Source of the DNA: Styela clava
Lineage: Eukaryota
DNA: 64,000 nucleotides
Direction: 5' to 3'
NCBI RefSeq assembly: GCF_964204865.1
Contig: NC_135250.1
Location: 28,272,001 to 28,336,000 of the forward strand
The notes under the pieces were generated by a model. The model searched no databases. It had not been told where the DNA came from and worked only from the letters and a program-made list of their open reading frames with translations. Each line of letters opens with the position of its first letter. Position 1 is the first letter of the stretch. The translations under genes were made by a program, and so were the position numbers. Below are positions 580 through 60,813 of this stretch, one piece after another.

Positions 580-761
580 TCATAACCGAATCAAACCTAA
601 CATTTACATGTGGGACAATACCACCTTACATGGACGAATACCACCTGAAACATATACCAACATTACGTCGTACGATAGACCCAAAACCAAACATTTTTCC
701 TTTGAAAATCCCCAACAAAAATTGTCAGTTTTCTCAATTACAATCAAATTTCGAAACATAC

Positions 762-24356: not shown

Positions 24357-24474
24357 AGAAACTACTAAACCTAATTCTTCTTAATTTTTCAAATTATCGT
24401 ACAATTGAAATTCATTTTTTGTCCTAAATGTGGTGTCACTATCAGATATACAAACAAATAGATCTTAGAATAGA

Positions 24475-26135: not shown

Positions 26136-29100
26136 ATGGCGAAAATCTGCTTTGTAGCAGTAATTTTGCTTGCCGCGACAACATCTGTTAAGGGTAAGTA
26201 CCTCTTGGCTAAATATTTACACCAATATGGTTTTGAATCAAGAATCAAAAACAATGTAATGTGTAGTAATAAAGTATCAACTGCGCATTCTTGTTGGCAT
26301 TTTTGTGCCTCAATTCAAAGATATTATTGAAATAGATTATCGTGTGAAATGAGGCGAAAAATCACCGTTATGTAATAGCGTGGCTAATATTGTGATTATT
26401 ACAGTTATCAAGCAATAAAAAACCAAATATTTTCATGCTGATAGCATAAAAAAATATTTCAAAATTCAAAAATACGTTAAAAATAGGCCCTCTCACTTTG
26501 TTATTTATTGTGCCTCTAAAAATATAAATGCATGTATTTTCTATATACAAAGCTCAAGCAACAGAAAATAATGAACAATGCACTGGTGAAAGCCATGAAA
26601 TAACTTTTGAGGTATGATCTCATTTGCAATATACTTGTTCAAACAAATGCTAAATCTACAGCTACATACATTCCAATGGCAGATAAACATATTCTTCCAA
26701 ATATTAGCTCAAAGCAAGGACACGAACCACCTCAGAAGCAAAGGAGAAATGTTAGGGCGACTACTGATTTACTGCCTAGAGCTTAGATCAACCTTGTATT
26801 AAAACAATATTTATAATTTTTTCAGGCATACAACGAAGAAGGTGAGTAAACCTCTCATATTCTAAAACTAATATTCTAAAACACATGAAGGGGCATCGAA
26901 TTTTTAGGCTTGTTCTGTTAATTACTACACTGAATGTTTTTCATTTTACTCACAAAAAAAGGCTTACAAATAATGGATTAGCACTCCATTGTCATAATAC
27001 GTTGTTTGATTGTATAGTGTGTGGTATTGTATACTTGATTGTATTGTACTAACTGTATTAGCAGTTAAGGTTTGGGAATAGGGAGCCAAATCAAATGTGG
27101 ATTCAGAGTCCGCAGTCAAAACTTAGTGTGAGAGAGTCTAGAGTCGAGAGCATAGATTGAAAGTGAAATGATGAAAACTCAAAGTACGAGCCCAGAATCC
27201 AATCTTGTAGTTTGAGACCCGAGTCAAAATTTGGAGTGGAATGTCTGAAGTCGAATCCTGGATTAGGCGCCTTGAGTCGAATCTTAGATTAGGCGTCTAG
27301 AGTCGAATCTTAGATTAGGCGTCTAGAGTCGAAACCTTAAGTGAACGTCAGGAGTCGAAAAATGTTATCCGGAACCGGAAAGATTTATAATGTCCTGAAG
27401 TAAAATCATACTTTTGTCAAATATACTGCTCTTGTTGAAAAATTCAACAAAATGAATCTCGGAATAAATATGAAATTATTTTAACAGTTACAATAGGTCA
27501 AAGTAAATTTATGGTTTTTCACAACATCTTACAATAACTAAAAATAATATGTAATTAATAGTTATTATTTATGTTATGTTCAGAATTGAGAAAAAAGCTT
27601 GAAGACATCTTTACACCAATTTTAATCAACAACCCAAATGCTGAATTGTCAATTTCTTCGGGATTTGATCGAAATGGTGCAAATAATCCCTCAGTTAGTT
27701 TTTCTACAGAAAACGAAGCAACCGATATCGCTACAACTGACCCGATAACTACCGAGAACCAGGAAAGCCCCTCTGACTTTTCGAATGCAACTAGTGCAAA
27801 CACAAGTCTCGCCACCGCCACAGTCGACCCTTCAACTGTAATTGGCGAGGATACCCTATCAACAGCAGATTTACCAGGTAAGATATTCATAAAAATAAAT
27901 CGGGTTAGTCGAAACTCCATCTTTAATGACGTTAGCAAATCTAGTTACGCTTGTAACAAAACTTGTATTAAGATATATACCCCCCTTCTTTCTATTTTAC
28001 AATTTTACAAATATCATGCTCATTCAAAGAAAGCCCCGTACGCGCAACCGCAGATACATGTATATTCTTTTCCAAAAAAGACCGTAATGGCTTCGGCTCA
28101 AAATTCCTCACCCAATTTATTGTACCCCGGGTTAGGTTGGGAGGAATGCTGCAGTAAAAATTGTTCCTGAATAAATATATAAAAACAAGAACTCAAAGAT
28201 ACTTAAAGAGATATTATTTTTAAAGAATAGCCCCCCCCCCCCCCCTTGTCGCTTCGGTTCAAAATTTCCAGCATAATTTGTGTTACCCTGGGTTAGGTTG
28301 GGAGCTTTGTTGCAATTAAACTGTTTCCGGTTGAATATACAAATCTTTATAAATTTATGACAAGTAACGTCGCTATTTTCTACCTAAGCCTACAAATATA
28401 CTGACAGAAGATACTTGCGATCACTAATGCACTACATACTATATGTACAAATTATATTTTATTTTGTGGAGTACTGAAAAGTGGGTGTTGACACAAGACT
28501 TGGAAAAGTTTAATCTACCGTGTCTGGAAAACCAGCTAGGTCAATATAATTATACAAAACGGTTGTTGTTGTTGTTAAAAAGTTAAAAGGTACTATAAAG
28601 AACCAAGGTACCAAATTCAGAAATAATAGGTTGTATATTTCAGTCTGGCAGGACTGACCATTTTTTTTCATATATGCCTTTTAGAAGCATGCGGTGGTGT
28701 CATATACAACCAAACCTGCTATGAAGCAATTATTCGTGACCGGAGCGTCTATTATCCAAGTGGAGCCAAATCGGCGTGCAAAGCTAAGGGATGGGAGATA
28801 GCTGATATTTATGATGCCTCACATTACGATATTATTGTGAATTACATACTGGAAGAGATTTTGGTTCCCCCTTTTTTTACAAAAATCTACCTGTGGACCG
28901 GGATGACATATAAAGTAAGCTATTTGTATTTATTTTTACTTTTGCTATACCCTCGTATTGAGTTGGGCCATGCTGCAACCAATCGCTTGGGTAAGCTATA
29001 GCCATTATTATTGGGTAATACCATAGAATAGAATACTATTCTAAAAAAACATAAAATACGTGGTAAACTGTCAACTATAAATAAATTGGAGTCGTATTTT

Positions 29101-30136
29101 GCGATTTTGGGAATTGTCAAACTTGATTTGATTTTTTGCACTCGAGATTATTTTTAAGCAAGATATCGCCGTTTGAAAAATCACAAGGTTTGGGCAAACG
29201 ATTGAAATTTATTTCATTGCATGCGGCTCCGTCGGTAGTTTCAGAATGAAAAAAAAAGTACATCGCGCGCACAATTGACTGTGTTTCGATTTCGCAGTTA
29301 CTACAATGAATAACCCAAGAAAACCTAACATAACACCAAATTTTGTGATAAAAGCGTTTTTAATCTGACGTGAGTCTGCTGAAACCCAACTTATGATGTG
29401 ATCTACCATTTCAAGTTATAATATTTTAGAATGCCGTTTTTCAATCAATAAATTTGAGCTGCGGATTTACAAGATTGCTGATTTAAAAGATTCGACCCCT
29501 AATTTATCAAAATGTTTGTCAAGTGTCAAATTTACAGTTTTAGTATATATATAGTATCTTTGAAATTTAGATTTATTTATGACTTGTATTACCTCTATTA
29601 AAAAGGTTAAGCATTTAAATTAAGTAAAAAATTTTACCTTACCCCAAAATGTTAATTAATCGGAAAGTAACAATTTTAACATTTTTTGAGGCGTTCCGTG
29701 AATAATAATCAACCTTTTCAAGGGCTCCGCAACACCAAAAGTTTGAGAACCCCTGCCCTATATAACTATCAAGCTTTATATTTTATAAGAACTATTACAC
29801 TTGTTATTCAACATTATTTAATATAAATAGGGTAAGTTTTGTTACCTAGGAGACCAACATTCTTCTGCAGAAATGGAATGTGCTCTATTTACGATCTAAT
29901 CTGCATATTACTTATAGTGCTCAATTACTTATATTTAGGAAAATCAAGTCGTGCTTTCTACAGGTCGAAATATCACCCTACCGGATCGAGTATGGTGCTC
30001 GGATTGTCCTCATAAAAATGACGCTTCATTTTTTCACATACGAATTTGGGTTGATTACAGCCCGGTAATAGCATTTGGAGGTCTTCAAAACTGGCGGGAT
30101 GTCCGTATTCGCGGAGTTCTTTGTCGAATACCCTGA
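26136..30136 (+). CDS. L1: secreted protein with mucin-like stalk and C-type-lectin-like domain (about 284 aa)
   Basis: Exons 26136-26193, 26553-26611, 26826-26841, 27584-27877, 28685-28914, 29939-30136; open frame (an alternative in-frame ATG lies at 26118). Signal MAKICFVAVILLAATTSVKA; S/T-rich stalk; CGGVIYNQTCY...SAC...LWTGM...GVLC pattern of a CTLD-like fold. Confidence 0.85.
27080..27360. repeat. Degenerate GAGTCG-motif tandem repeat in L1 intron 3
   Basis: Roughly 26-bp period, clearest as GAGTCGAATCTTAGATTAGGCGTCTA at about 27248-27332. Related CGACTCC runs at 15715-15770 and 21000-21050. Confidence 0.7.
28088..28340. repeat. Two-copy diverged direct repeat, about 160-bp period, with a poly-C tract
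   Basis: GCTTCGG(C/T)TCAAAATT...ACCC(C/T)GGGTTAGGTTGGGAG at about 28090 and 28251; C-run at 28231-28245. Confidence 0.6.
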
Positions 30137-35242: not shown

Positions 35243-38128
35243 ATGAGATTGATCTTTCCTATTTGGCTTGCACTACTAGCACTAGTCATTGGTAAGTGAA
35301 TATGTTTACTTGCTTATAATATGTAGAAGCATGTAGGATTGTTATCAAGACTTTCGAAACAAAAATGCTCATTTTATATTGCGGGTTAGTCATTTTATTC
35401 CTAATATCGATATTTTCTCGCACATCTTGCTTAAAAACAACTTTCTTAACAAATTGGAGTTAATGTTAGATAAATATTTTAAAAATAATCTAATTTATGA
35501 ACAACAAGGATTATAAAACAAATTTTTCTCATATGGCGTTGAAAATATCAATTTTGTTAATTAAACACGAAGTGGAATTAATGTTTTCGTTATTACTTGA
35601 AATTTCGATTTGTTGAAAATTGTTGTTGTCGATAGAAGACTATTATTTATTAAAAAAAATTCTGTGGGCTTCATGGAATTCCTCTTGCTCTGAATATTTG
35701 TGTGATTATGTCATCAAGATCTATAATTGTCCGACTGTGTGACTGATTCGCAATTGCATTTTAGCAATTTGGAGGTCAACGGAGTGGAGAGTTGTTTGAT
35801 AAAAAAAGAATAAGGGTATCGGTGCTGTAGAAGATTTTGTGATAATTCTTTGATTTGGTCTTAGCGTTCATATATTTGAGCATTAATCTCTTGTTTTCTT
35901 AATTAAGAATGCACGACGGTGGAAATATATTGATATTACATCATGTCAATCTTACATATATTTTTTTATAATTATAGCTGAACCTACTCCAGATGAAGAA
36001 AAATGCGATATAGAAACAACTCATGAAAAAATTATTGAGGCAAGTCGAATATATATTACATCAAGTTGAAACCATAGGCTAACATCACAGATATAAACAA
36101 ATTTTTTTCTGGTTTACTTTGCATGATCAAATTTGGTAAAAATAAATCTAAATCTGAAAATATCCTAAAACAATAAAACTATTATCTATATTTCTGAGAT
36201 TTTATTTATAAGCAAGCATTTGTAATGTTTTTCTCAAATATTATGATTTGTGCAATCAATTTTATGGTAAATTTCTTAAATTTCAAGTTAATCTTAACTT
36301 AAAGATTTATTTTGTCTTTTCAGGGCTTCGGTGGAGAAGGTAAATGCACTTTAAAGTTATAAAAGTTTAGAGTATCTGAAATAGCTCAAACCACTGAATA
36401 CCTTATAAAATTCAAAAATTATTAAATAATTTATACAATATAGATAGTAACAGTGAGGATGCAATAGGCCATGGGGACAGAAAGAGTACATCTTCTACGT
36501 TGTCGTATCACGTATTGGAATATTTATTTATCTATTTATCTTACCCAGGGTTGTATGGATTGATTGAAAAGATCATAGATGCACATATTTTTTTGTAAAC
36601 CTTAATGGCAACCTGTAAACCTGAATAAGATGCATTGGCTGGCTGCACATCCGCTTTAACTCAAATTTGCAACTATCGTTTAGTGGGAATTGCTTTGAAT
36701 CAAGTAAACGCGCATTCAATATGAGGTAAAGAGGACATGAGTTAGACAATAATAAAAACAAATCAACGATTATTTTGCTAATGCGCGACAATGTATATTT
36801 TTCAAATATGGAATATTATAGTTCAAAATTCATTTAATAAAACTTTCAGCATAGTTATACTGTAAATGTAAGTCTTCTTTTTTTGTTCACTTTAAGAACT
36901 TCGAAATAAGTTGGAAGAAATCTTGACTCCAATTTTGATGAACAATCCGAATGCTGAATTGAAAATTTCGACTTTTATCGACGACGAATACATCACCCAG
37001 CCAACTGAGATTTTTCCTATTCGGTCAAGTAAAACCGTCCCTAGCAAGACATTGAGTGAATCTACAACAAAGCATCCTACCACACCACCTGAAATCACAG
37101 ATAGAACTACTGACCCAACAGGAGAGACAATGAATCCTACTTCACCTGGTAAACAAATAACTAAATCACAACTAAATTGGGTAGCTAATGATGAATCGGA
37201 TAGATTTTTGTAATAGTAGCTACAGAACTAAAAGTGGGTTCACGTACAGAGCCCTATAAAAGTTCTAAATACCTTAAATTACATACTTAATGAAACGCAG
37301 GTTACGTTTGATAATAATGTTATTATGATTACCTAGCTAAAATAATTTAACAATATAAATGATGACAATATTGATCTTTTCGACTTTTTTTAGATAACTG
37401 CAATTTGATCTATGAGAATAGCTGCCTCCATGTAATTGTTGTTAATAATGAAATAAATTTCGACATGGCCACGCAGCAATGCACAGCCAATGGTATGAAA
37501 TTGGGGAATATCTACGATACTGCTCACTTCAACTCGGTTGTAAACTACTTTCGTACGAACTTCTTGACTGGCATTACATATAATTACATTGACATTTGGA
37601 CTGGAATGACTATCAATAATGCAAGTATTTTATTGGGTATTCAAAAAAAGTTGCAAGGAATAATAAAAATAAATTATAGTTACAAACAAGCGCGGATAGC
37701 TAAAAATCAAAGTAATCCACAAATTTTAGGTAAAAGCCGGTAGATACCATAATTTACACGTCAATTTAATTATTTCGGGAAAAAATGGCTGGGGAAAGGG
37801 TGTGAGTAAAACAAATCAGCTAAGCTGTACTAATTAAGTTTAAATAAATAAAAATTTCAATTTCGTAGCTAAAATATCGGAAATAAATTTATTCGTCTAA
37901 TTGATCATTATTTTATTGAAGGTTAGCGGAAGAAAAATTATTCTCACAACCGGAAAAGAAATTGGACTTCCACATTGGCTTGAAAATCCGTCCGCGGCTT
38001 CGACATACAAAAATATAGCACTCCGAATTAATAAAAATGCTGGATCTACAAATAGTGGCATTTTCAACAAACCTCCAAGTGGATTACTAAGCGGGGCGCT
38101 TTGTGAAAAGCCGAAAGATCTTTTTTGA
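35243..38128 (+). CDS. L2: secreted mucin-stalk C-type-lectin-like protein (about 270 aa)
   Basis: Exons 35243-35291, 35978-36039 (GC donor), 36324-36339, 36897-37148, 37394-37620 (GC donor), 37922-38128. Signal MRLIFPIWLALLALVIA; ELRNKLEEILTPILMNNPNAEL is paralogous to L1; IWTGM; GALC. Confidence 0.82.
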
Positions 38129-39993: not shown

Positions 39994-42900
39994 ATGGCAA
40001 GTGTTTATTTTATCTTTTTGTTTTTGTTAGCTGGATCGACTTCAGGTAAGTTCCGCACCTCTGTTTTGGTGTAATTCCACTTTTTCGAATTTAATAAAAA
40101 ACTCATCAGTGACTTCCTTATGTGATGCATTTTAATGAGCTTCTGGTCTGTGGTCAAAACGGTTAATCTGACGATAATTTTCATAATGCTTTATTGCCTT
40201 TACGCAACTAGCTCTAGTACACAAATCCATTGATGCTATTAGACAAGAGGTGACAATTTTTGTTCCTAAAATACCGAAGAAAAGCAGATGGTAACCCGTT
40301 TCAAATACTTTACAAATCATATTCAAAAATGTGTTATGAATAGTGTAATGTGTAGTTACATTCCTTCAAATTATAAAACCGTGATTTTTCTTTAAAAATA
40401 TTAATAAAATGATTGAAATAGTTTCCTTAATTCAAATCATTGTCTAGCCTTGTTGAAAAAGTTTTGCAAAACGACATCGATCAAATAAATAAGTACAAAG
40501 GGGATTTCATGTATAAAGTTGGAATATATATGTATCACGACAATCTTCTTACACTTTTTTTTAGTCGCAACCAGCTTAGTTGAAACATGTGATGGACAAA
40601 TTACAAATGTTGATATTTCAGTAAGTATTAGTAAATAAAGTTCATTGTTTGCGTATAGAAATGATTGTTATGTAAGGTCCCTATACTAATAATCAAACGT
40701 AAAAATGATTCAGATTATGAGGAGCCGCATAGTAAACAATTATAATATGATTCATTTAATTTGTCATGATAAGCTTGTCGAGACTATTTTCTGAGAAAAC
40801 TGTTACCATTTATTCTCGGTACGTTTACTTAAATATATTTGTGTCAACATAAACATATTGCACGCCATTTTGCTACTGAAGGCTACTTAAGCGCTCATCG
40901 CCTTGCTTCTGTTAAATTTGTATGAATATAATTTCAAAAATCTAATTTCTTTGTTTTAGTTTGAAAGCGAAGAAGGTAAGCTCAACCTATTTTTATTGCT
41001 TAAATATTCTGGTATATATATAAAGTAGTGGGATTTAGAGGGCTTGCACAGTTCGCGCAAACCCAGTCTTGGAATGTCGTGATAATCAAGGAACCCGTCC
41101 TTGATTTTTTTGTTTTGTACGTTTGATTACTGCACAATATTGGACAAACTTCATATTTGGCGTTTCTATAGTTTGCTATTAGATCCAGGTAAAGAGTGTC
41201 GTGATAATGCATCTTACACAGTGGCATACATATATTCTGAAATGAGGGAATCTGTTGTTGATGAGTTCGATACAATAGAGAACTAGTTCCAAAATTTAAA
41301 TCCCACCACACATTAAACACACATTAATCGTATTCTGTGGATAGTTGGCCTATGTTCACAATTTATCTCTCAGTTCTGGGTAATTCTGGGTTCGCTCGTG
41401 ACTTAGTTTTCAGTGCACTGCTGAGTCTTTTAGCAATTTTACAGCTCCATTATAAGTCGGACTTCAATTGTTCCCTGTATTACGTCAAACATTGTTTTTC
41501 GGTATCTATGCTAAGGACGTATCTCTGTATACTTAGTATTTCCTGGTGTTTCAGGGCAGGCTTGTGACTTTACTTTGAAGCTTTCTTCTATTGAGTAATG
41601 AGCATATACGTAAATTTACCTCGAAATTCGCAGACTTAATAAGTGAACGCATGCCCATGACAAATTTTCATAAAAAGTTTACATAGATATTTTTCTGTAC
41701 TCCTGAAGTATGCGCACCAAGATGTCGCATAACTGAACCCTAACCTGGTACACAACCTGAATTCAGGTTGTGCGCCATCTTGGTGCGCATACTTCAGGAG
41801 TTCCTATTTTTCATTGTCTTTATTTTTTTAATTTTATTTTTTCAGATTTAAGAAATCAACTGACAGAGCACTTCATTTCACTTCTGACTAGGAATCCAAG
41901 ATTATTACATAGTGAAGTAACAATTCAGACAGAACTGGCACACATTCTAGGAAATACTGAATCCAAAACAGAAAGTCCACATAACTCTACAACTGGTAAT
42001 TTGACAACGACACCAAAACACGTCGGATCCACTGGAAAAGTAGAGACTGCAGATTCCTCTAAAATCTTACCGACCTCTGACAAACTTACAGTTTCACCTT
42101 TATTCTCTGCTGTAGATGATACAGAAACCAAATTTGTGACCTCTGGCGTAACTTCCAACTTCGAAACATCGACGTACTTCACCACCACAAGTGTAGCTTT
42201 GACTACTTTGTCAGGTATTTTAAGCACTTAACTATCATGAGAGGTTACGTAATTTAACTTCTTATTTCTTTTCCTTTCTTTTCACTGGTGGATTCGTATG
42301 CATGCAATGCAATAGTGCTGTAGCAAGAATATTGGCGCATACTGATCGAATTATTTTTGTGTATTTCTGCGTAACTTCAATGAAAATGTAGTAAATGAAA
42401 ACAATCCAATGAATATTCCGATCCTTCCAAAATGAGTAATTTCTAATATCAGTTGATACTTTTATACAACATTATTTTAATCAAAATTCGTTAATGACTG
42501 TCACATGACAAAATATATGAAGTAACTAACAGATAAGTCAGTCTTTAACAATAGTTTTGTTTACCAAATAAATGTTGTATTCTGCTAGCGTTTTTATTTC
42601 AACCATTGTGCTGATGATCTCGTATACCGTAATTTAATAATTCTGTAGCAAGAAAAGTTTATATATTAAAAGTTAAAGATTATAATATTCTAGGACAACA
42701 TATCTAATCTGTGGCGTTTGGAATTTGAAATCGAGATGTGAGACCTGCGTTCGCAAGACAGTTAAATCTAACTCTTTCACCACGAAGCTATCGCGACCAC
42801 AACTTTTCTAATATTTGGATCATTAAATCTAAATATTCACCAATAGCTTATGAGGTATATTAATGAATACTATAAATATGTAACTATGAAATTAACAGAA

Positions 42901-44079
42901 TGCGATTTCACTTTCGATGGAAAATGCTTCAAGATAGTCAACCCGGAACCGAATTATAAATCAAACTTTGACAAAGCGAAAAGTTTATGTAAATCATGTT
43001 CCATGTCCATGGGAAATATCTACAGCCTTGAACATTACAACAAAATTCAGAAATACATAAGAGATTATATTTTGAACTCCGGATCAATCGGAAACCTATT
43101 TCTGTGGACGGGAATGCGATACAGGGTTAGTAGTTACAATTCAGTATTTTTTCCAAAATGCATAGAGATATAATTTACAGGTATATGTTCGATGATCTGT
43201 AATGTGAAGTATTGTATTGCGTTAATTTTGACATCGAAATTCAATTTGAAAGAGGCCTTTCCTATGAGGTATTCATAATGTTTGGAGGTGGAAATATTGA
43301 CTGGAATATAATAACAAAACAGCTGTTTTGGCGAATAAATTCTTTACGTAAGAGAATTTAATTGTGAGACACGTGTAGACAAAAGTGTATTATAATCTAA
43401 CAAGTATAAAATTCTCGGTCATTGAGCCTGTATTTTAATTATAACAAATGGCAGATTGTATTTTTTGAGATGCAATTCAATGAGGAAATAAATCTATATT
43501 CTATTCGTGAGATGTATCACTGTTGATTTTCATTATAGAAGGTATCATCTGTTCGGTTTTCAAGTTTCTAAAAATTTGTGCGGCCCGGCAATGACTTGCA
43601 TCCTTTAATTTTGGCCCGCGAACGACAAAAGGTTGCCGACACCTGGTCTAATGGTTCCACTATACATACGATTAGTTAGAATATATGTTTGTCATCTGCG
43701 TTCAACAAATGATATTTGTCAACAGTCAATTTGCTGCTTGCTCTGATCCCTATTCTGTGCGTAGATGTGTGTGCAAGTGCATTGTCCCATAACCAGAAAG
43801 TAGTCTGAAAAACTGAGCTATAAATGCGATTCATATTAATATTTGTTCATTTCAATATCTCAGAACAAAGAAATACTTCAGACATCTGGGACAAAAAGCA
43901 AATTGTCAAATTGGCATATAAACTGGCCCAATACAGAAAAACATTACGAAAATATTGTGATCTGTGTGGACAGGAATGCAAATGAGGAAAAACAAGGGAT
44001 TTTGAACTACTTGCCGACTAAAACTTCTGTTAATGGAGCACTATGCGAACGGTCCATGGTCGGAGATGATGTCGAATGA
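39994..44079 (+). CDS. L3: secreted mucin-stalk C-type-lectin-like protein (about 311 aa)
   Basis: Exons 39994-40045, 40565-40620, 40960-40975, 41846-42214, 42899-43125, 43864-44079; all GT-AG, open frame. Signal MASVYFIFLFLLAGSTS; CDFTFDGKCF...LWTGM...QGILNY...GALC. Confidence 0.86.
41697..41804. mobile_element. Hairpin MITE with 9-bp TSD, copy 2
   Basis: Near-perfect inverted arms CTCCTGAAGTATGCGCACCAAGATG / CATCTTGGTGCGCATACTTCAGGAG; TSD TATTTTTCT/TATTTTTCA; ends about 40 nt before the L3 exon 4 acceptor. Confidence 0.82.
43546..43645 (-). mobile_element. Terminal fragment of the same hAT MITE family as 143-579
   Basis: The reverse complement CAGGTGTCGGCAACCTTTTGTCGTTCGCGGGCCAAAATTAAAGGATGCAAGTCATTG matches positions 143-200. 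Confidence 0.8.
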
Positions 44080-45767: not shown

Positions 45768-46115
45768 GACGCATTCATATATTCAAAATAAATCTTTTAG
45801 TGTAAAATGTCAACCTATTAACATTAGTTAAATTTTGGGCACCACATAATGAAACTACCATTGATTCATTGTTTGTATACGCATTTCATTGGTCAAATTA
45901 GGCCATGCATATATTATTGAAAGGTCACAATATTTGTAGTAATATTACCTCTGGCTTCAATGTGGTGCAAATGAAAACACACATAGGCATTTAGTTCAAT
46001 GAACACTCTGACGCATCCTGTCGCTTAATAGTTCTGATAGGTACGATAAAAAGACATTTGTGCATTGTGTTCTACTTTGTCAGTACAGCATTGGAGGCAT
46101 CACGCTACAAACAAA
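45768..46115 (+). promoter_or_regulatory. Conserved upstream (promoter/5'UTR) block of L4
   Basis: Lies directly before the L4 ATG; close homologs at 52732-53060 (before L5) and gene-less copies at about 51255-51600 and 62051-62400. Regulatory function is inferred from position only. Confidence 0.5.
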
Positions 46116-46152
46116 AGATTTAGGTTGTACTTTCAGGCCAGAAAGAGTAAAA

Positions 46153-49100
46153 ATGGAAACAACCTTCTTTCTTTTTGTATTATTTCTATTCAATTGGAAA
46201 TGTTTGGGTGAGTTACAAGATGAAATTAGCATATTTGTATGACAATTATTTGGGTCGGTGTTGAAGCGTGAAAGCGACGTCATATAACGAAGTACACGCA
46301 ATCGTTTTTGCAATCGTTGAGTAATTGAATCAAAATCTATATTATATTTTATGAAATTAGGTAATAGATCTTTTTTTCGCATTAGGATAATTGCGCTATA
46401 CGTTATTATATTATATTATACGTTATTGTCTGGTGGTTAACGAGTCTGCTGCAGATTGTATATTAAATAGTTCATACAAATGACATCTTATATGGGGAAG
46501 ATATGAACTTAAAGATATCATATTGAATTTTCAAGTAGCTAGTACAATCTATAGGTGATAAAATTGTTGACGTTTTAGAGTGTACTCATAAAATTACTTT
46601 TTGTTGACAAATTATTACTATAGTTACAGCCGCAACCAATTCAGATGAGTCATGCGATGGGCATAGTGCAGCGTTTGAAATTGTGGTAAATACTTATATT
46701 TAATTTGCTAAACTAAAACAAACTAACTTCAAATATTAAAAATTGGAAACACAGAAAACTACAAAAAATGAATTAAAAACTCTAGAACATAGATGTCCAA
46801 CCTGCGGCCCGCGGGAGCAAAGTTGTTGAAAGCATTTAAAGAGAGTTTCGATTAATTGCAAAATTCGACGGTCTCTTTAAAATTTTGTATGCCTCCCGTT
46901 GACATTCGGGTAGAAGAGGCCCCAGAATATACGCAAAGAAGATAGAAAACTTATACTCTACAGTGAGTGTATCAATAATAATGAGACAAATGGTAATGCG
47001 TATTGCAGCGGCAATGGAAACAACGTATATGTGCAAATCTTTCTTTTCGAAATTGAAAGTTATGAAATCGGAGCATAGGAGTAAGCTGTCGAACGACAAC
47101 TTGACAAGCTAGTTAGTTACGTTGTGAGGTACCAAAGCCCAAAGCTAGCCGTTAATATTGGACAGTTGAGCAATAACATTCAAAAGCAAGTTTTGCACTA
47201 GTTGAAAAAAAAAAGAATTGCTGACTTCGTGTTGTCCGGGTGCAAGTTGTGAAAGGGTGAAATCCGCAAAAGAATCCAGGCGTTTGATTTAGCGACGCTC
47301 AAATTCTAACGTAAATCGGCACTGGGCTGGTATTCTAGTTGGGTAAAAACGTTTGTGCTCCTGAAGTATCCGTATAAAGATGGCGCACAACCTGAACATA
47401 GTATGTGTACCAGGTTATAGTTCAGGTTGTGCGTCATCTTCGTATAAAAATACTTCCGGAGCGCCAAAACGTTTGCGGCCCGCAATGAATTTCTTCATGT
47501 GAAAGTGGCCCGCGACACTAACAAGGTTGGACATGCCTGCTCTAGACAATTAAAATTACTTGAATATTACAATATATAAATATTTACAGCTGCTCTATCC
47601 GAACATAACTTCGTACTGGCAAATTGGCTAATGTAATATGTTTTAGGTACTTCAACGATTTATCATCATTAAATATTTAAAAACTTTTATTTTCAGTCTG
47701 AAAGTGAACATGGTGAGATTTGACTCTATGATAAATGCTCAATAAACCGCTCAAAGATAAATAAAACAGTGAAAAATTTTGATATTTAGCTCGGTATGGT
47801 ACTTTCCTATTTTTTTTTCATTACAATTCACACACACTTCAACATAAAGTATTTAAAACTAACATTTATTTATTTGGAGGATTGTAAATTGAGTCAATGA
47901 GAGATATGTATAAAGTGATCACCAAATCAGGAGTTGTAAGCTGTTAATACAATGTGATCTTGAATTTAATTTGTTGTCTGTCACCTTAGCTTTATCTCTG
48001 CTAAAATAAATATGAAGAAGTTCTAATTCTATTTCTTATTCTCGCACTTACTTCTTTGAAAATTTAAAAATCTAAATCACTATTACTGTGTTTTCAGATT
48101 TGAAAAGGCAACTGGAGGAAAAGTTCACGTCACTTTTGAGGAAGTATCCAAACTTGTTTCAAAGTGAAGTCAACATTCAAGCAACATTAAGAAACCCACA
48201 TGCGACAAAGACATCTTTCACAACATTACCAAATTTTTCAACAAATGCTTCATTCAATGCGACAAACAAACGACCCTGCCAATCTACCGCAAATACTCAC
48301 TCTATTAAACCTTTAACTGAAGCCTACAACAAAACAACCTCCAGTGTTACGACTTTCCCTATAACAACTAGAAACTTTATCTCCACTGCTGCATCAACTA
48401 TGGAAACACTAACTGATTCAACCGAAACCACAGTTATTCTCACAACTTTACCAGGTTAGCTATTCTATGCATTGTGTTTGTTATGTAACTCACCTTTGCA
48501 GGCTGAAGTTGTATGTAATATGCACCATGCCTTTGCTCTATATGAGATTTGTGTTTACAGAAACTAATGCGATTTAAAAAAAAAACTTCTTCTTTCGTTT
48601 GGCAGACAGTATTAAATTGTATTTCCTCATATTTGATTTAAGATATATGTGGAGCCATATACAACAACACTTGCTACATTGCGATCCTTAGGCTTGGAGA
48701 CTTCCAAAAGGCTGTGGAGTTATGCCAAGCTGAAAATTGGACTATGGCAAACATCTACAGTGCTGATCACTATGACATGATTGTCAACTACATACGACAA
48801 ACAATTTTGCCTTTTTGGAATATGGAGTATATTTACTTGTGGACAGGAATGGAATATAAAGTAAGTGAACTTTTTTTACTTTGTGATAGAATTTACTCGA
48901 TATAAAAACAGGAGGAGAAAATCCGTTTTGGGTATTTGTATTGACTAAATATTGAATCAAAAATGTTAATTTATGCAATGGGAAATTATATTCTATTTGA
49001 AACTTGTTAAATGCGATAAACTAAAAATAAGCTAGTCAAGGTGTACTAATTTAAAGCCTAATAACTTTGTTCCATTACGACTATTCGTATCATGCGTAAT

Positions 49101-49604
49101 ATACATATAATTGGATATAATGATAAAATAAAGTTCGACTAATTGTCATTAAGAAAACAACGCAAAAAATATAGCAATTATCTCATTATGCCAATTTTAT
49201 CTTGTTAGTCAAAAATCTGTAATTTGAGCTACTTTCATTTCACCCACATAGTAATAATTTTGCCAATCTACATAATATAATTAGTGCATTTAAAATATTG
49301 CAAAACAGTAAATTTCCCGTATAAATTATTGCTTTCCTTGATTTATGTGAATATGTGAAAATTCAAATAAGAAGTTTGAAAACCTCTTCTTTGTTGTTTT
49401 TTACAGAACAATCAAGTGTATCTTGATTCTGGCGAGACAATTTCTTTACCTGCTGAAATATGGTACCCTTCTTTTCCTCAAGACACTGCTTTAAGCTCGC
49501 ACATAGTTATTCGCATTGTATCAGATTCAGATTCGATTAGACAGGGACTTATGAACTATGAAGCTTCTCAACCCTGGTACGGGGCTTTGTGTGTAATGCC
49601 TTGA
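46153..49604 (+). CDS. L4: secreted mucin-stalk C-type-lectin-like protein (about 299 aa)
   Basis: Exons 46153-46207, 46630-46685, 47697-47712, 48098-48454, 48643-48860, 49407-49604; all GT-AG, open frame. Signal METTFFLFVLFLFNWKCLA; CGAIYNNTCY...LWTGMEYK...WYPSFP...QGLMNY...GALC. Confidence 0.88.
46788..47539 (+). mobile_element. Deleted hAT (Charlie/SPIN-like) element in L4 intron 2, with a transposase C-terminal remnant
   Basis: TIR CATAGATGTCCAACCT / AGGTTGGACATGCCTG; TSD CTCTAGAA/CTCTAGAC; about 47013-47109 translates as METTYMCKSFFSKLKVMKSEHRSKLSNDNL, the hAT dimerisation-domain motif. Absent at the paralogous site in L5. Confidence 0.9.
47355..47465. mobile_element. Hairpin MITE with 9-bp TSD, copy 3, nested inside the hAT element
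   Basis: GTGCTCCTGAAGTAT...ATACTTCCGGAGCGCC with TSD AAAACGTTT on both sides; loop is in the opposite orientation to copies 1 and 2. Confidence 0.8.
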
Positions 49605-52400: not shown

Positions 52401-53097
52401 TTCATGAGAAAAAAAACTCGAAGCGGATGGAAACAAAGCCCGATTCAATGGTTTTTGTAGCGGTATAGTTTTATCCAGCTATTACATAATTACACGTAAA
52501 TGCAACATTTCATTTGCATATTATTCATCCATAATCCAATCCATTCTTCTTCTAATCGTTACAGACAATCGGAGGAAAAAGTTTGCAAAAACAGGATAAT
52601 TAGCCACCGATTACATTCACGATTTTATCGATATTCATTTCATTGAAAATGTAAAGTAATAGATGTAATTAATTAATTTTGCATAAATGTAGTATTATAT
52701 ACATAAGATATATTTAACCTGGCAGATAACAGTGACGCATTCATATATTCAAAATAAAATCTTTTAGTGTAAAATGTCAACCTATTAACATTAGTTAAAT
52801 TTTGGGCACCACATAATGAAACTACCATTGATTCATTGCTTGTATACGCATTCCATAGGTCAAATTAGGCCATATATGTACTATTAAAAGTCACAATATT
52901 CGTAGTAATATTATCCCTGGCTTTAATGCGGTGCAAATGATAACACACACATAGGCATTTAGTTCGATGAAAACTCTGACGTATCCAGTCGCTTAATGGG
53001 CATTTGTGCATTGGGTTCTACTTATTCAGTACAGCATTAGGGCATCACGCTACAAACGACATATTTAGGCCGTATTTTTAAGCCAGGAATAGTAGAA

Positions 53098-56000
53098 ATG
53101 GGTACAACCTTCACCATTTTTGTACTGTTTCTATTTCATTGGACATATTTGGGTGAGTTACAAAATTATAATTTGAACCGCTAATGAAATTAGCATATTT
53201 GCATGAAAATTATCTTTCAAGTTTTAAAATGTAGGCAAGATCCAATTGAATGCCAATTTTGAGTTGATCAAAATTCCGGATATTAATATAAATCCAATGT
53301 CTGTTAGTTATGTTATTATTGGTTCCTCTTGTTATCGTGGCAATTTGAATGGCGAACAGCTAAAAGGAAGGTGTTTATAAACAAAATAGCCATGTTCATA
53401 TTAGAAGCTGTTTATCGAAAACTTTGTGCGGAGTTGAGGCGTGGAAAACATCATGTAACCGAATACAAATAATCGTTTTTAGGATTGAGTAATTTAATTA
53501 AAACATATATTTTATTTTATAACATTTTAGGTATTAATTTTTGTTGGCACCATCGTCTTAAGGTTAATGTGCTGCAGATTTTATATTAAATATATTTTTT
53601 GTTTAAATGAAATTAAATCGTATGTGGCGAAAGAATGCACTTAAAGATATAATATTGAATTTCTAGTTGCTACTACAATCAATACGTAATAAAATTGTTT
53701 ACGTTATATAGTGTACTTATAAAACTACTTTTCGTTGACAAATTATTACTGTATTCACAGCCGCAAACCAGTTGGATGAGTCATGTGACGGGCAAAGTGC
53801 AGAGTTCGAAATTGTGGTGAATACTTATATTTAATTTATTTAACATCAAAATTGGAGCAATAAACTAAAACAAACTAAGTTCAAATATAGAAGAGTGAAA
53901 TAAAATTCGTTACACACAGAAAACTATAAAAAATGAATTAAAACCTCTAGAGTCTAGACAAATAAAATTGCTTGGTTATTACAATATATAAGAATTTAGA
54001 GCTGGTCTCTCCGAACATAACTTCCTTCAGGCGATTTGGCTAATGTTCTATGTTTTAGGTACTTCAAAGATTCATCAACATTAAATATTAAAAACCTTTT
54101 ATTTTCAGTTTAAAAGCGAACATGGTGAGATATTCTATTATAACTAATGTTTTCTGCTCAAAGATATATAAAACATTAAAAAAACTGTGATAATCATCTC
54201 GGTATGGTACTTTTCTGATTTTATTTTTTATTTCAGTCCACCCATAAACAACCACAACATAATTTATTTTAAAACTAACATTTATACAATTGGAGAATTT
54301 AAAATTGAGACAATGAAAGATATGTATAAAGTGTTTGATAAGTGTAAGGAACACACTTGTTGTAGCACCGCTGGTTAACATATGTAGCGGGATTTAATGG
54401 TGTTTGTGTGTTTGATAATTGTTAAAATATGTCTTCCTTATATCTACGTACATATTATAATACAGTGAATGATAAACATAACTATCCAGGCCTGAGCATT
54501 TAAATCTTAGTAACTATTCCCTTACAAAATCAGGAGTTGTAATCTGTGGATATTATGCGATAATGAATTTAATTTGTTGTCTGTCATTTTAGCTTAACCT
54601 CTGCTAAAATAAATTTGAAGAATTTCCAATTGTATTTCTTATTATCGCACGTTTTCTTTAGAAATTTAAAATTTGAACATATAAATTAGAATATTTGTGT
54701 TTTCAGATTTGAGAAGGCAACTGGAAAAAAATCCACGTCACTTTTGGCGAAGCATCCGGACTTGTTAAAAAGTGAAGTCAACATACAAGCAACATTAAAA
54801 AAAAAACATGCGACAAAGAAATCTGTCAAAACATTTCCAAAATTTTCAACAAACACTATATTCGAAGCGACAACCAAGCGCCCCCGTCAATCCACTACAA
54901 ATACTCACCTTACTAAACCTCCAACTAAAACCTACAACAAAACAACCACTCATCCATTCAAAGCGACTTACAACAAATCAACCTCCGCTCCATTCAAAGT
55001 GACCTACAACAAAACAACCTCTGCTCCATTAGAAGCGAACTACAATAAAACAACCACTGCTTCATTCAAAGCGACTTACAACAAAACAACCTCTGCTCCA
55101 TTCAAAGCGACCTACAACAAAACAACCTCTGCTCCATTCAAAGCGACTTACAACAAATCAACCTCCGCTCCATTCAAAGCGACTTACAACAAAACAACCT
55201 CTGCTCCATTAGAAGCGAACTACAATAAAACAACCACTGCTTCATTCAAAGCGACTTACAACAAAACAACCTCTGCCCCATTCAAAGCGACCTACAACAA
55301 AACAACCTCTGCTCCATTCAAAGCGACTTACAACAAATCAACCTCCGCTCCATTCAAAGCGACTTACAACAAAACAACCTCTGCTCCATTAGAAGCGAAC
55401 TACAATAAAACAACCACTGCTTCATTCAAAGCGACTTACAACAAAACAACCTCTGCTCCATTCAAAGCGACCTACAACAAAACAACCTTGCTCCATTCAA
55501 AGCGACTTACAACAAATCAACCTCCGCTCCATTCAAAGCGACTTACAACAAAACAACCTCTGCTCCATTAGAAGCGAACTACAATAAAACAACCTCTGCT
55601 CCATTCAAAGCGACTTACAACAAAACAACCTCTGCTCCATTAGAAGCGATCAACAATAAATCAACCTCCGCTCCATTCAAAGCGACTTACAACAAAACAA
55701 CCTCTGCTCCATTAGAAGCAAACTATAATAAATCAACCTCCGCTCCATTCAAAGCGACTTACAACAAAACAACCTCTGCTCCATTCAAAGCGACCTACAA
55801 CAAAACAACCTCTGCTCCATTCAAAGCGACTTACAACAAATCAACCTCCGCTCCATTCAAAGCGACTTACAACAAAACAACCTCTGCTCCATTAGAAGCG
55901 ACTTATAACAAAACAACCTCTGTTCCATTCAAAGCGTCCTACAACAAAACAACCTCTGCTCCATTCAAAGCGTCCTACAACAAAACAACCTCTGCTCCAT

Positions 56001-59000
56001 TAGAAGCGAACTACAATAAAACAACCACTGCTTCATTCAAAGCGACTTACAACAAAACAACCTCTGCTCCATTCAAAGCGACCTACAACAAAACAACCTC
56101 TGCTCCATTAGAAGCGAACTACAATAAAACAACCACTGCTTCATTCAAAGCGACTTACAACAAAACAACCTCTGCTCCATTCAAAGCGACCTACAACAAA
56201 ACAACCTCTGCTCCATTAGAAGCGAACTACAATAAAACAACCACTGCTTCATTCAAAGCGACCTACAACAAAACAACCTCTGCTCCATTCAAAGCGACCT
56301 ACAACAAAACAACCTCTGCTCCATTAGAAGCGAACTACAATAAAACAACCACTGCTTCATTCAAAGCGACTTACAACAAAACAACCACTGCTTCATTCAA
56401 AGCGACTTACAACAAAACAACCTCTGCTCCATTCAAAGCGACCTACAACAAAACAACCTCGGCTCCATTAGAAGCGAACTACAATAAAACAACCACTGCT
56501 TCATTCAAAGCGACTTACAACAAAACAACTCTGCTCCATTCAAAGCGACCTACAACAAAACAACCTCTGCTCCATTAGAAGCGAACTACAATAAAACAAC
56601 CACTGCTTCATTCAAAGCGACTTACAACGAAACAACCTCTGCTCCATTCAAAGCGACCTACAACAAAACAACCTCTGCTCCATTAGAAGCGAACTACAAT
56701 AAAACAACCACTGCTTCATTCAAAGCGACTTACAACAAAACAACCTCTGCTCCATTCAAAGCGACCTACAACAAAACAACCTCTGCTCCATTAGAAGCGA
56801 ACTACAATAAAACAACCACTCATCCATTCAAAGCGACGTACAATAAATCAACCTCTGCTCCATTCAAAGCGACTTACAACAAAACAACCTCTGCTCCATT
56901 AGAAGCGATCTACAATAAATCAACCTCCGCTCCATTCAAAGCGACTTACAACAAAACAACCTCTGCTCCATTCAAAGCGACCTACAACAAATCAACCTCC
57001 GCTCCATTCAAAGCGACTTACAACAAAACAACCTCTGCTCCATTCAAAGCGACCTACAACAAAACAACCTCTGCTCCATTAGAAGCGACTTATAACAAAA
57101 CAACCTCTGTTCCATTCAAAGCGACCTACAACAAAACAACCTCTGCTCCATTCAAAGCGACTTACAACAAAACAACCTCTGCTCCATTAGAAGCGAACTA
57201 CAATAAAACAACCACTGCTTCATTCAAAGCGACTTACAACAAAACAACCTCTGCTCCATTCAAAGCGACCTACAACAAAACAACCTCTGCTCCATTAGAA
57301 GCGAACTACAATAAAACAACCACTGCTTCATTCAAAGCGACTTACAACAAAACAACCTCTGCTCCATTCAAAGCGACCTACAACAAAACAACCTCTGCTC
57401 CATTAGAAGCGAACTACAATAAAACAACCACTGCTTCATTCAAAGCGACCTACAACAAAACAACCTCTGCTCCATTAGAAGCGAACTACAATAAAACAAC
57501 CACTGCTTCATTCAAAGCGACTTACAACAAAACAACCTCTGCTCCATTCAAAGCGACCTACAACAAAACAACCTCTGCTCCATTAGAAGCGAACTACAAT
57601 AAAACAACCACTGCTTCATTCAAAGCGACTTACAACAAAACAACCACTGCTTCATTCAAAGCGACTTACAACAAAACAACCTCTGCTCCATTCAAAGCGA
57701 CCTACAACAAAACAACCTCGGCTCCATTAGAAGCGAACTACAATAAAACAACCACTGCTTCATTCAAAGCGACTTACAACAAAACAACTCTGCTCCATTC
57801 AAAGCGACCTACAACAAAACAACCTCTTCTCCATTAGAAGCGAACTACAATAAAACAACCACTGCTTCATTCAAAGCGACTTACAACGAAACAACCTCTG
57901 CTCCATTCAAAGCGACCTACAACAAAACAACCTCTGCTCCATTAGAAGCGAACTACAATAAAACAACCACTGCTTCATTCAAAGCGACTTACAACAAAAC
58001 AACCTCTGCTCCATTCAAAGCGACCTACAACAAAACAACCTCTGCTCCATTAGAAGCGAACTACAATAAAACAACCACTGCTTCATTCAAAGCGACTTAC
58101 AACAAAACAACCTCTGCTCCCTTTAAAGCGACCTACAACAAAACAACCTCTGCTCCATTCAAAGCGACTTACAACAAAACAACCTCAGCTCCATTAGAAG
58201 CGAACTACAATAAAACAACCACTGCTTCATTCAAAGCGACTTACAACAAAACAACCTCTGCTCCCTTTAAAGCGACCTACAACAAAACAACCTCTGCTCC
58301 ATTAGAAGCGAACTACAATAAAACAACCACTGCTTCATTCAAAGCGACTTACAACAAAACAACCTCTGCTCCCTTTAAAGCGACCTACAACAAAACAACC
58401 TCTGCTCCATTAGAAGCGAACTACAATAAAACAACCACTGCTTCATTCAAAGCGACTTACAACAAAACAACCTCTGCTCCCTTTAAAGCGACTTACAACA
58501 AAACAACCTCTGCTCCATTAGAAGCGAACTACAATAAAACAACCACTGCTTCATTCAAAGCGACTTACAACAAAACAACCTCTGCTCCATTCAAAGCGAC
58601 CTACAACAAAACAACCTCTGCTCCATTAGAAGCGAACTACAATAAAACAACCACTGCTTCATTCAAAGCGACTTACAACAAAACAACCTCTGCTCCCTTT
58701 AAAGCGACCTACAACAAAACAACCTCTGCTCCATTCAAAGCGACTTACAACAAAACAACCTCTGCTCCATTAGAAGCGAACTACAATAAAACAACCACTG
58801 CTTCATTCAAAGCGACTTACAACAAAACAACCTCTGCTCCCTTTAAAGCGACCTACAACAAAACAACCTCTGCTCCATTCAAAGCGACTTACAACAAAAC
58901 AACCTCTGCTCCATTAGAAGCGAACTACAATAAAACAACCACTGCTTCATTCAAAGCGACTTACAACAAAACAACCTCTGCTCCATTCAAAGCGACCTAC

Positions 59001-60813
59001 AACAAAACAACCTCTGCTCCATTAGAAGCGAACTACAATAAAACAACCACTGCTTCATTCAAAGCGACTTACAACAAAACAACCTCTGCTCCCTTTAAAG
59101 CGACCTACAACAAAACAACCACTGCTCCATTCAAAGCGGCATACAACAAAACAACCTATGCTCTATTCAAAGCGACCTTAAACAAATCAACCTCCGCTCC
59201 ATTCAAAGCGAACTACAACAAAACAACCCCCGCCCCATTCAAAGCGAACTATAACAAATCAACCTCCGCTCCATTCAAAGCGACTTACAACAAATCAACC
59301 ACCGCTCCATTCAAAGCGACCTACAACCAAACAACCATTGCCACATTCAAAGCGACCTACAACCAAACAACCTCTGCTCCATTCAAAGCGACCTACAACA
59401 AAACAATCTCTGCTCCATTCAAATCGACCTACAACAAAACAACCTCTGCTCCATTCAAAGCGACAACCAAGCTACCCCGTCAATCCACTGCAAATACTCA
59501 CTCTACTAAACCTTCAACTAAAGCCTACAACGAAACAACCTCTGGCGTTATGACTTTCCCTATAACAACTGGATATATTATTGACACGACCACTGCATCC
59601 ATGGGAACATCGACTATGGAAACATAACCAGATTCAACCGAAACCACAGTTAACCTTACAACTTTATCAGGTTAGCAATGTCATTCATTGTGCTTGTTTT
59701 AAATCTCACCTTTGCAGGCTGAAGTTGTATGTAATATGTACCACGCCTTTGCTCTATATGAGATTCGTTTTTACAGATAATAATCAGATTTAAAACAAAA
59801 ACTTGGTCTTCTTCGTTTGGCAGACCGTACCTAAATGTATTTCATCATATTTTATTTAAGATGAATGTGAAGTCATATACAACAACACATGCTACAGTGC
59901 GATCGTTAAACTCGGAGACTTTCAAAAGGCCGTGGAGTTATGTCAAGTTGAAAATTGGACTATGGCAAACATCTACAGTGCTGATCACTACGACATGATT
60001 GTCAGTTACATACGACAAACAATTTTGTCTCCTCAGAAAATGGACTATATTTATTTGTGGACAGGAATGAAATATGAGGCAAGAGAATATTCTACTACGT
60101 GATTTATTTAAGTTTTTTAAAATTGGATGAGAAAATCCATTTTGGGTATTTGTATTGATCAAATATTGAATCGAAAATGTTATCAATGCAATGGAAAATT
60201 ATATTCTATTTAAAAATTGTTAAAATGCATGGAACTAACAATTTAGCTAATTGAACTAATTCAAACTATGTTTCATTACGAGTATTCGTATCATGTGTCA
60301 TATACACGCAATTGGATATATTGCAAAAAAAATTTGACTAATTGCCATAAATAAAAATTGACGCAAATAATATAGCAGTTAGCGCATTATGCCCATATTA
60401 GTATTATTTAAAATTATGTAATTGAAGCGTAATCGACTCCACCCAGATAGTAATTATTTTTCCAATCTATTTTATTTGTCATATAAATGGTATTTCCAAA
60501 ATATTCCAAAACAGTCAATTTCTCGTATAAATTATTGTTTCTCTTGATTTTATTGGATATATGTGAAAAATCACATGATGAGTTTCAAAATCTCCCCTTT
60601 TCATTGTTTTTACAGGACAATCAGGTGTTTCTTGATTCTCGCGAGACAATTTCGATACCTGCTGTACTATGGTACCCTGGTTTTCCCCGAGACACTGATT
60701 TAAGGTTACACATAGTTATCCGCGTTGAATCAGATTCATCCTCGACTACACAAGGACTTATGAACTATGAAGCTTCTCAATCGTGGTACGGGTCTCTGTG
60801 TGCAATGTCTTGA
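53098..60813 (+). pseudogene. L5: recent duplicate of L4 with a hugely expanded, disrupted stalk exon (pseudogene, null allele, or gene rescued by exon skipping)
   Basis: Exons 53098-53152, 53761-53816, 54109-54124, 54707-59670, 59861-60078 (GC donor), 60616-60813. Exons 1-3, 5 and 6 are open and the same length as in L4. Exon 4 has a -1 shift in an A7 run (54725-54731), single-base deletions at about 55488, 56530 and 57789, and an in-frame TAA at 59625-59627. Confidence 0.75.
54933..59465 (+). repeat. Coding-type minisatellite, 126 x 36 bp, unit FKATYNKTTSAP (variants LEANYNKTTTAS etc.)
   Basis: First TACAACAAA at 54933, last at 59430: 4497 nt plus 3 deleted bases = 125 x 36. Lies inside exon 4 of L5; higher-order periods of 3, 4, 5 and about 33-35 units are visible. 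Confidence 0.97.

What the first reader, a model, noticed from the sequence alone, without database searches (positions are those of the whole stretch)
26136..60813. Five-gene tandem family of secreted single-Cys / mucin-stalk / Ca-independent lectin-fold proteins, invisible in the ORF track
Seen: five genes share a six-exon plan with intron phases 1,0,1,1,0. Each encodes a signal peptide, one conserved Cys (EQCTGE, EKCDIE, ETCDGQ, ESCDGH, ESCDGQ), a predicted amphipathic helix (ELRKKLEDIFTPILINNP / DLKRQLEEKFTSLLRKYP), a non-conserved S/T stalk, and a CTLD-like domain with WTGM in place of WIGL. Established: Ca2+-dependent C-type lectins carry EPN/QPD and WND motifs plus an inner disulfide; none is present here. 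Inference: a collectin-like design (N-terminal Cys oligomer, stalk, head) with a glycosylated stalk instead of collagen, diversified for recognition or for mucus/extracellular matrix structure. I do not recognise it as a named family.
Basis: partly seen in the sequence, partly recalled or inferred. Interest (0 to 1): 0.75.

Follow-up and report, generated by a model that had tools for sequence, protein, structure and literature searches.

The report
Variable-headed lectin-fold sea-squirt protein repertoire
A sea squirt carries a tandem cluster of genes for likely secreted proteins that join a conserved, unnamed front module and a flexible stalk to a head predicted to fold like a C-type lectin but lacking the usual calcium and sugar motifs; the head differs sharply between gene copies and between likely alleles, so they probably act as a diversifying set of recognition proteins, though no ligand has been tested.

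Summary
The cluster is real. g1-g4 are open six-exon genes (phases 1,0,1,1,0). g1-g3 equal RefSeq 'uncharacterized' Styela clava proteins, and spliced contigs support introns of g1 and g3. g5 has four frameshifts as assembled; a sixth gene lies just past the window. The head models as a C-type lectin fold (CTLD) without EPN/QPD, WND or the inner disulfide. It is not a five-gene oddity: at least 150 head exons exist in this genome, relatives occur in Ciona and Clavelina, and 35 of 147 relatives carry a short collagen. The front is a small strand-helix-strand module of no assigned fold, found in about 40 loci; its Cys is not invariant. New here: fronts stay 92-96% identical while heads fall to 43-59%; sister clusters show positively selected head sites plus head swapping; and g1 has likely alleles only 64% identical in the head, against 100% for g2. 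Best reading: a secreted, calcium-independent recognition repertoire under diversifying selection. Ligand and oligomer state are untested. The scan noted a related CTLD receptor family 2.9 Mb upstream, not these genes.

The parts
26136..30136 (+). g1, six exons: 26136-26193, 26553-26611, 26826-26841, 27584-27877, 28685-28914, 29939-30136; 284 aa; highly polymorphic locus (RefSeq LOC120334972; RefSeq start at 26118)
   Evidence: spliced joints and divergent types; allele comparison
35243..38128 (+). g2, six exons: 35243-35291, 35978-36039, 36324-36339, 36897-37148, 37394-37620, 37922-38128; 270 aa; two GC donors (RefSeq LOC120334948)
   Evidence: model and fold search
39994..44079 (+). g3, six exons: 39994-40045, 40565-40620, 40960-40975, 41846-42214, 42899-43125, 43864-44079; 311 aa (RefSeq LOC144425732)
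   Evidence: contigs of X7 and X11 jump 43124 to 43863
46153..49604 (+). g4, six exons: 46153-46207, 46630-46685, 47697-47712, 48098-48454, 48643-48860, 49407-49604; 299 aa, open; only a 104-aa RefSeq fragment found (LOC144425838)
53098..60813 (+). g5, recent duplicate of g4, broken as assembled by four frameshifts in exon 4; exons 53098-53152, 53761-53816, 54109-54124, 54707-59670, 59861-60078, 60616-60813
54930..59464 (+). 126 x 36-bp tandem array inside g5 exon 4; the 12-residue unit carries an N-glycosylation sequon; 31-33% Ser+Thr
26553..27670 (+). Front module of g1 (exon 2, micro-exon 3, first ~29 codons of exon 4): Cys, strand, helix, strand; no assigned fold
28685..30136 (+). Head of g1 (exons 5-6): long-form CTLD with four conserved Cys, WTGM in place of WIGL and an intron directly after that motif

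Best explanation
These genes encode likely secreted proteins with a conserved front module, a Ser/Thr-rich stalk of variable length and a head predicted to have the C-type lectin fold without calcium/sugar motifs, and they probably work as a diversifying repertoire of recognition molecules. Shown: gene structure, splicing of some introns, motif loss, conserved fronts with divergent heads, excess amino-acid change at head loop sites in two sister clusters, and very divergent g1 types. Inferred: the front module is the constant part (oligomer or docking site for a host partner), the glycosylated stalk is a spacer, and the head loops bind varied non-self ligands (microbial surfaces or proteins) without calcium. 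Variety arises from tandem duplication and loss, swapping of head exons at the phase-1 intron before the head, positive selection on loops, and retention of old alleles.
For: Fold: g2 head pLDDT mostly above 85; all listed Foldseek rows are CTLDs, best E 2e-7; a 107-sequence profile hits only CTLD proteins among the 60 of 106 PDB rows shown. Constant front, variable head: four relatives have fronts 92-96% identical and heads 43-59%. dN/dS of the front 0.17-0.32, exon 5 0.45-0.81, exon 6 0.91-1.08 in the C18 and C10 sister clusters. Site tests M1a vs M2a: 2dL 13.1 and 13.4 (C18 exons 5, 6), 41.9 and 22.8 (C10), selected class omega 2.7-5.8; the largest of 52 null simulations, half of them two-tree mosaics, was 6.3. 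g1: RefSeq's earlier protein for the same gene id is 93% identical over residues 1-72 but 64% in the head, with no closer match in this assembly; g2 is 269/270 identical between annotations. DNA run X1 holds both g1 types at depths of about 7-13 each against 20-23 in shared flanks, and X7 and X11 hold spliced divergent types. The columns that differ between g1 types are the ones that vary among 18 sister genes (p=2e-5). Head swapping: front-module proteins need 11 label changes on the head tree, at least 2 forced by strong branches; P0104's head sits in a 99% clade of other architectures.
Against: No ligand, tissue or induction data. Selection was tested on 20 sister loci, not on the window genes, with my own approximate code (scaled FastTree branches, automatic alignments; misalignment, pseudogenes and complex recombination can inflate it). 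The C10 front also gave a weak signal (2dL 6.8, p=0.033). Head dS is 2-3.6 times front dS, so part of the contrast is swapping or homogenisation rather than selection. Whole-exon omega intervals include 1. The listed g1 exon-5 variants change 7 codons non-synonymously and 3 synonymously, about what neutrality gives (truncated list). The g1/g4-type column test was not significant for g4 vs g5 (p=0.06). The two g1 types could be haplotype-specific paralogues rather than alleles. g2 and g6 show no such polymorphism between the two annotations.
Confidence: 0.57

Rival explanations
1. Structural glycoproteins of the mucus net or tunic: the stalk gives hydration and length, the lectin-fold head and front module cross-link matrix, as non-sugar-binding CTLD matrix proteins do (recalled: lithostathine, sea-urchin spicule proteins).
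For: Ser/Thr-rich stalks of variable length; the g5 array would add about 1,500 residues with a sequon in nearly every unit; no calcium motif; no membrane anchor.
Against: A structural partner should hold the head constant, yet the head is the fastest part and the front the slowest. Some members have almost no stalk (P0004, P0009). The one truly mucin-sized member is frameshifted.
Confidence: 0.17
2. Ordinary birth-and-death family: heads drift under relaxed constraint and are shuffled by unequal crossing-over, while gene conversion keeps fronts alike; no adaptive diversification.
For: Exon-6 omega close to 1 and head dS higher than front dS; g5 broken; scattered head tree; an earlier unchecked note on a related receptor family reported loop swapping without detectable selection.
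Against: Site tests reject M1a in 4 of 4 head exon sets, above all 52 nulls. In three close C18 pairs pS is alike in front and head (0.10-0.20) while head pN (0.21-0.27) exceeds pS. Core Cys, Trp and Gly stay fixed.
Confidence: 0.16
3. Self/non-self or gamete recognition proteins whose deep alleles are kept by balancing selection, like ascidian allorecognition and self-sterility genes (recalled: Botryllus fester/BHF, Ciona Themis).
For: At least three very divergent g1 types across three runs, far above the 1.72% genome heterozygosity reported in PMC7540406.
Against: Only g1 of the three genes compared between annotations shows it; dozens of paralogues suit a repertoire better than one allelic locus; no membrane anchor; no gonad or egg-coat expression data.
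Confidence: 0.1

Closest known systems
Collectins (CTLD group III: MBL, SP-A/SP-D, CL-K1; tunicate collectin-like proteins; the 'collectin' and 25 'MBL' genes reported as expanded in S. clava, PMC7540406)
   Same: Signal peptide, N-terminal Cys, extended spacer, C-terminal CTLD; sister proteins with the same head do carry short collagen (35 of 147).
   Different: Window genes have no collagen and no helix adjoining the head; no EPN/WND or inner disulfide; a folded front module instead of a short Cys segment.
Tetranectin group (CTLD group IX)
   Same: Secreted, long-form CTLD with an N-terminal helix; tetranectin is the top Foldseek row (E 2.3e-7, 20% identity, close to many other CTLDs).
   Different: The helix is separated from the head by a 55-94 residue stalk and packs in a strand-helix-strand module; the inner disulfide and calcium sites of tetranectin (recalled) are missing.
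Non-calcium CTLDs that bind proteins (CD69, NKR-P1, CLEC9A, LOX-1; Ciona CiCD94-1, described in PMC5465252 as lacking carbohydrate binding)
   Same: CTLD fold without the calcium/sugar site; all four vertebrate examples appear in the fold search.
   Different: Those are type II membrane receptors (recalled; stated for CD94 in PMC5465252); these are soluble with a unique front module.
Diversified invertebrate recognition families (recalled: amphioxus/Ciona VCBPs, snail FREPs, sea-urchin SpTransformer, nematode and oyster CTLD expansions)
   Same: Tandem arrays, birth and death, constant plus variable parts, deep alleles.
   Different: Different domains and front module; function of those has been assayed, of these not.

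Membership tests
CTLD superfamily | C-type lectin fold | tested here: met
   AlphaFold2 model of g2 and Foldseek; profile search of PDB; 48 of 139 relatives hit Pfam Lectin_C at E<=0.001, though 0 of 6 window-type proteins do
CTLD superfamily | Outer disulfide Cys pair, long-form N-terminal Cys pair and WIGL-type motif | tested here: met
   Four Cys and WTGM invariant in g1-g5; 104 of 139 relatives' heads have exactly four Cys; bonding itself inferred
Ca2+-dependent C-type lectin (carbohydrate-recognition domain) | EPN/QPD in the long loop and WND on strand beta-4 | tested here: not met
   Absent at those places in g1-g4; among 139 relatives' heads 0 EPN, 0 QPD, 1 WND in the C-terminal part
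Ca2+-dependent C-type lectin (carbohydrate-recognition domain) | Inner disulfide | tested here: not met
   Exon 6 has one invariant Cys only; extra Cys in g1 and g3 are not conserved
Ca2+-dependent C-type lectin (carbohydrate-recognition domain) | Calcium-dependent sugar binding | not testable with these tools
   Needs a binding assay
Collectins (group III) | Collagen Gly-X-Y region | tested here: not met
   None in g1-g4; present in 35 of 147 relatives, none of them among the 11 with the front module
Collectins (group III) | Helical coiled-coil neck directly before the head | tested here: not met
   Residues 72-126 before the g2 head are Ser/Thr/Pro-rich and modelled without structure
Collectins (group III) | N-terminal Cys for inter-chain bonds | tested here: inconclusive
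   One Cys in g1-g6, but Tyr in 5 of 15 aligned family members; bonding partner unknown
Collectins (group III) | Trimer and higher oligomers | not testable with these tools
   Needs non-reducing gels, cross-linking or SEC-MALS
Tetranectin group (IX) | Trimerising helix adjoining a three-disulfide CTLD (recalled definition) | tested here: not met
   Helix at residues 41-58, head from 129; two disulfide pairs only
Gel-forming or membrane mucins | Long Ser/Thr repeat region with vWD/CysD or SEA plus membrane anchor (recalled definition) | tested here: not met
   No such Pfam domain, no anchor; a long repeat only in frameshifted g5
Any solved fold, for the front module | Clear structural match | tested here: inconclusive
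   Model of relative P0157 gives beta-beta-alpha-beta-beta at pLDDT 68-79; best Foldseek E 0.039, best VIA Z 6.0 at rmsd 4.7 over 103 residues

The most novel reading that the evidence does not exclude
Styela has evolved an antibody-like germline repertoire of about 40 secreted proteins in which an undescribed constant front domain recruits one host effector, while swappable, positively selected, calcium-free lectin-fold heads, with alleles as divergent as paralogues, recognise many different non-self ligands.
Probability: 0.25. Interest if true: 0.78.

Novelty: new variant of a known kind. Interest (0 to 1): 0.5.

Why it matters
Tunicates are the closest invertebrate relatives of vertebrates and have no adaptive immunity, so how they diversify soluble recognition is an open question. 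This family is hidden from Pfam-based counts (0 of 6 window-type proteins and only 48 of 139 relatives hit Lectin_C), so ascidian lectin repertoires are probably undercounted. It offers a directly testable constant/variable design: one small new domain, heads with mapped variable loops, and one locus with two very different versions in a single DNA run. If the heads prove to be matrix binders or drifting copies, it is an ordinary CTLD expansion, which is common in invertebrates.

Tried and rejected
Pfam on single exons and whole proteins: no hit above cut-off. Word-based protein searches found only 2-4 close Styela proteins; the full HMMER search was needed. ESM Atlas: head 0.95 to Lectin_C clusters; front module no usable hit. 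Complex prediction of three copies of the g2 front module gave no verdict (score 0.02, alignment not used), which is no evidence either way. Fold searches for the front module gave no clear match; this does not show the fold is new. The run search listed no RNA holder; RNA status of X7, X8, X9 and X11 is the tool's guess. Raw reads of X6 were too thin (about 1-2x) to genotype g1. g2, g5 and g6 splicing was not tested on reads; g4 has only one 138-base piece ending at the exon 5 donor. Dropped rows: g6 exon 6 and g6 exons 2 and 6 were read out of frame and ignored. The head tree is the quick version, unrooted, 141 columns, 74 of 142 forks open; no clade test was run. The g3 variant list (10 non-synonymous, 1 synonymous codon) is truncated and by my hand estimate not significant against neutrality (about p=0.2). 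Literature: eight searches listed no paper describing this subfamily, the front module or its polymorphism; subscription journals are mostly not covered, and I did not read the supplements of PMC7540406, whose Table S8 may count sister genes as 'collectin'.
Full report
Observation. With exon borders read from the sequence, g1-g4 give open proteins with intron phases 1,0,1,1,0 and a 16-nt third exon. g1, g2 and g3 are identical to RefSeq 'uncharacterized' proteins of Styela clava. For g4 I found only a 104-aa RefSeq fragment. Contigs of two runs guessed to be RNA (X7, X11) join g1 exon 1 to 2 and exon 2 to 4 with the micro-exon's letters between, and skip the last intron of g3. So the genes are real and at least two are spliced as modelled.

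Corrections. g5 is not intact as assembled. Its exon 4 holds a 126-copy 36-bp array and four frameshifts, one in an A run before the array and three single-base deletions inside it. I could not tell pseudogene from assembly error. A sixth gene follows about 2-5 kb past the window end (RefSeq LOC120334969). Its front is close to g4's (pN 0.07) while its exon 5 is not (pN 0.49).

The head. The g2 model has a confident head (residues 129-264) with the CTLD order of strands and two helices. All listed Foldseek rows are CTLDs, as are the 60 shown of 106 PDB matches to a 107-sequence profile. Four Cys and WTGM are invariant in g1-g5. The intron directly after that motif matches a position described for soluble fish CTLD genes (PMC514892, passages seen). 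EPN/QPD, WND and the inner disulfide are missing in the window genes and nearly throughout the family: 0, 0 and 1 of 139 heads. From established CTLD knowledge, canonical calcium-dependent sugar binding is therefore unlikely; this is an inference.

The wider family. One head exon matched 150 of 150 scored candidates (470 found) on 15 contigs of this genome. The representative search gave 297 clusters at E<=0.001. Of 20 looked up, 14 are S. clava, 1 Clavelina, 1 Ciona and 4 unnamed. Among 147 relatives, 35 have a collagen-like run and 11 the window's front module; some have sushi repeats. The published S. clava genome paper reports expanded 'collectin' and 25 MBL genes (PMC7540406, passages seen); whether these include the collagen-bearing sisters I could not check.

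The front module. It is more than a Cys and a helix. In longer members it models as strand-strand-helix-strand-strand at pLDDT 68-79; window genes lack the first strand. No fold match is clear. The Cys is Tyr in 5 of 15 aligned members, so a disulfide is not essential to the module. Counting distinct places plus g1-g6 gives about 40 loci on seven contigs. Every named protein carrying it is S. clava, within the reach of these searches.

Constant front, variable head. Four relatives have fronts 92-96% identical and heads 43-59% identical. I fetched 20 of about 34 non-window loci and recovered front and exon 5 for 20 and exon 6 for 18. dN/dS was 0.17-0.32 for the front, 0.45-0.81 for exon 5 and 0.91-1.08 for exon 6. 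My own M1a/M2a site test favoured a positively selected class in all four head exon sets (2dL 13.1, 13.4, 41.9, 22.8), not in the C18 front (0.3) and weakly in the C10 front (6.8). None of 52 simulated nulls, half of them mosaics of two trees, exceeded 6.3. Against a pure selection story, head dS is 2-3.6 times front dS, and front-module proteins are scattered on the head tree (11 changes, at least 2 forced). Heads are therefore also swapped, or fronts homogenised. An earlier unchecked note on a related receptor family 2.9 Mb upstream reported loop swapping without selection; it prompted the mosaic control.

Deep variation at g1. The protein filed under g1's gene id in the earlier RefSeq annotation is 93% identical to g1 over residues 1-72, nearly lacks the stalk, and is 64% identical in the head. 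This assembly has no closer match to it than g1. By contrast g2 is 269/270 identical and g6 exons 4-5 185/186 between annotations. Run X1 holds contigs identical to the window and contigs of the other type, each at about half the flank depth; the listed exon 4 changes give the earlier protein's residues; X7 has that type spliced and X11 has further types. X1 may be the assembly's own source, so it is not independent of the window type. The simplest reading is old alleles, far above the 1.72% heterozygosity reported for the species; haplotype-specific paralogues remain possible. The positions that differ between the two g1 types are those that vary among sister genes (p=2e-5): the first hairpin, the loop after helix 2, the long loop and the last hairpin, several of which form the binding face of known CTLDs (recalled). 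The listed g1 variants show no clear excess of non-synonymous change (7:3).

Mechanism. Most likely (0.57) these are secreted, calcium-independent recognition proteins: a constant front that oligomerises or docks to a host partner, a glycosylated spacer, and a variable head. Structure and evolution are shown; secretion, glycosylation, ligand and effector link are inferred. Rivals are matrix or mucus structure (0.17), drift with swapping (0.16) and allo- or gamete recognition (0.10).

Comparison and verdict. The head is a member of the CTLD superfamily. The proteins are not collectins, tetranectins or canonical C-type lectins by the features tested, though they resemble collectins in layout. 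Eight literature searches listed no description of this subfamily; I saw passages of PMC5465252, PMC7540406 and PMC514892 and only listings for the rest. Lineage-specific, diversifying CTLD expansions are a known kind of thing in invertebrates, so this is a new variant of a known kind. The undescribed front domain, the constant/variable pattern and the deep g1 types raise it above routine. Interest 0.5.

Noticed in passing
window about 15000-24360 (+) and 494-4281 (-): Two similar multi-exon genes upstream: exon translations show an astacin-type HEXXH zinc motif and what look like MAM and MATH domains and a membrane helix, i.e. meprin-like proteases in opposite orientation (family label recalled, not searched).
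   Followed up: no
window 36039/36040, 37620/37621, 60078/60079: Three GC-AG introns among the 25 introns of g1-g5; two are in g2, and RefSeq's g2 protein uses both.
   Followed up: partly
window 41700-41800, 47377-47440, 43500-43645, 29030-29760: Short high-copy repeats (probably miniature transposons) in introns; they attract thousands-fold contig depth.
   Followed up: no
G000:C18:16032000-16081000: At least eight head-exon copies about 7 kb apart with the same or nearly the same score, a very recent tandem amplification of one family gene, with a like copy at C1:25784107.
   Followed up: no
L018 (G000:C8:4107581-4108791) versus P0009: A second front-module locus where exon 5 is 92% but exon 6 only 66% identical to the earlier RefSeq protein; allele or neighbouring paralogue not resolved.
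   Followed up: partly
window 30054-30070, g1 exon 6: The window's g1 type has a Cys-x-x-Cys pair in the long loop that the other g1 type lacks; it could form an allele-specific disulfide.
   Followed up: no
window 44990-46150, 50500-53090, 61200-62900: Long upstream non-coding stretches look duplicated among g4, g5 and g6 by eye, fitting recent tandem duplication.
   Followed up: no
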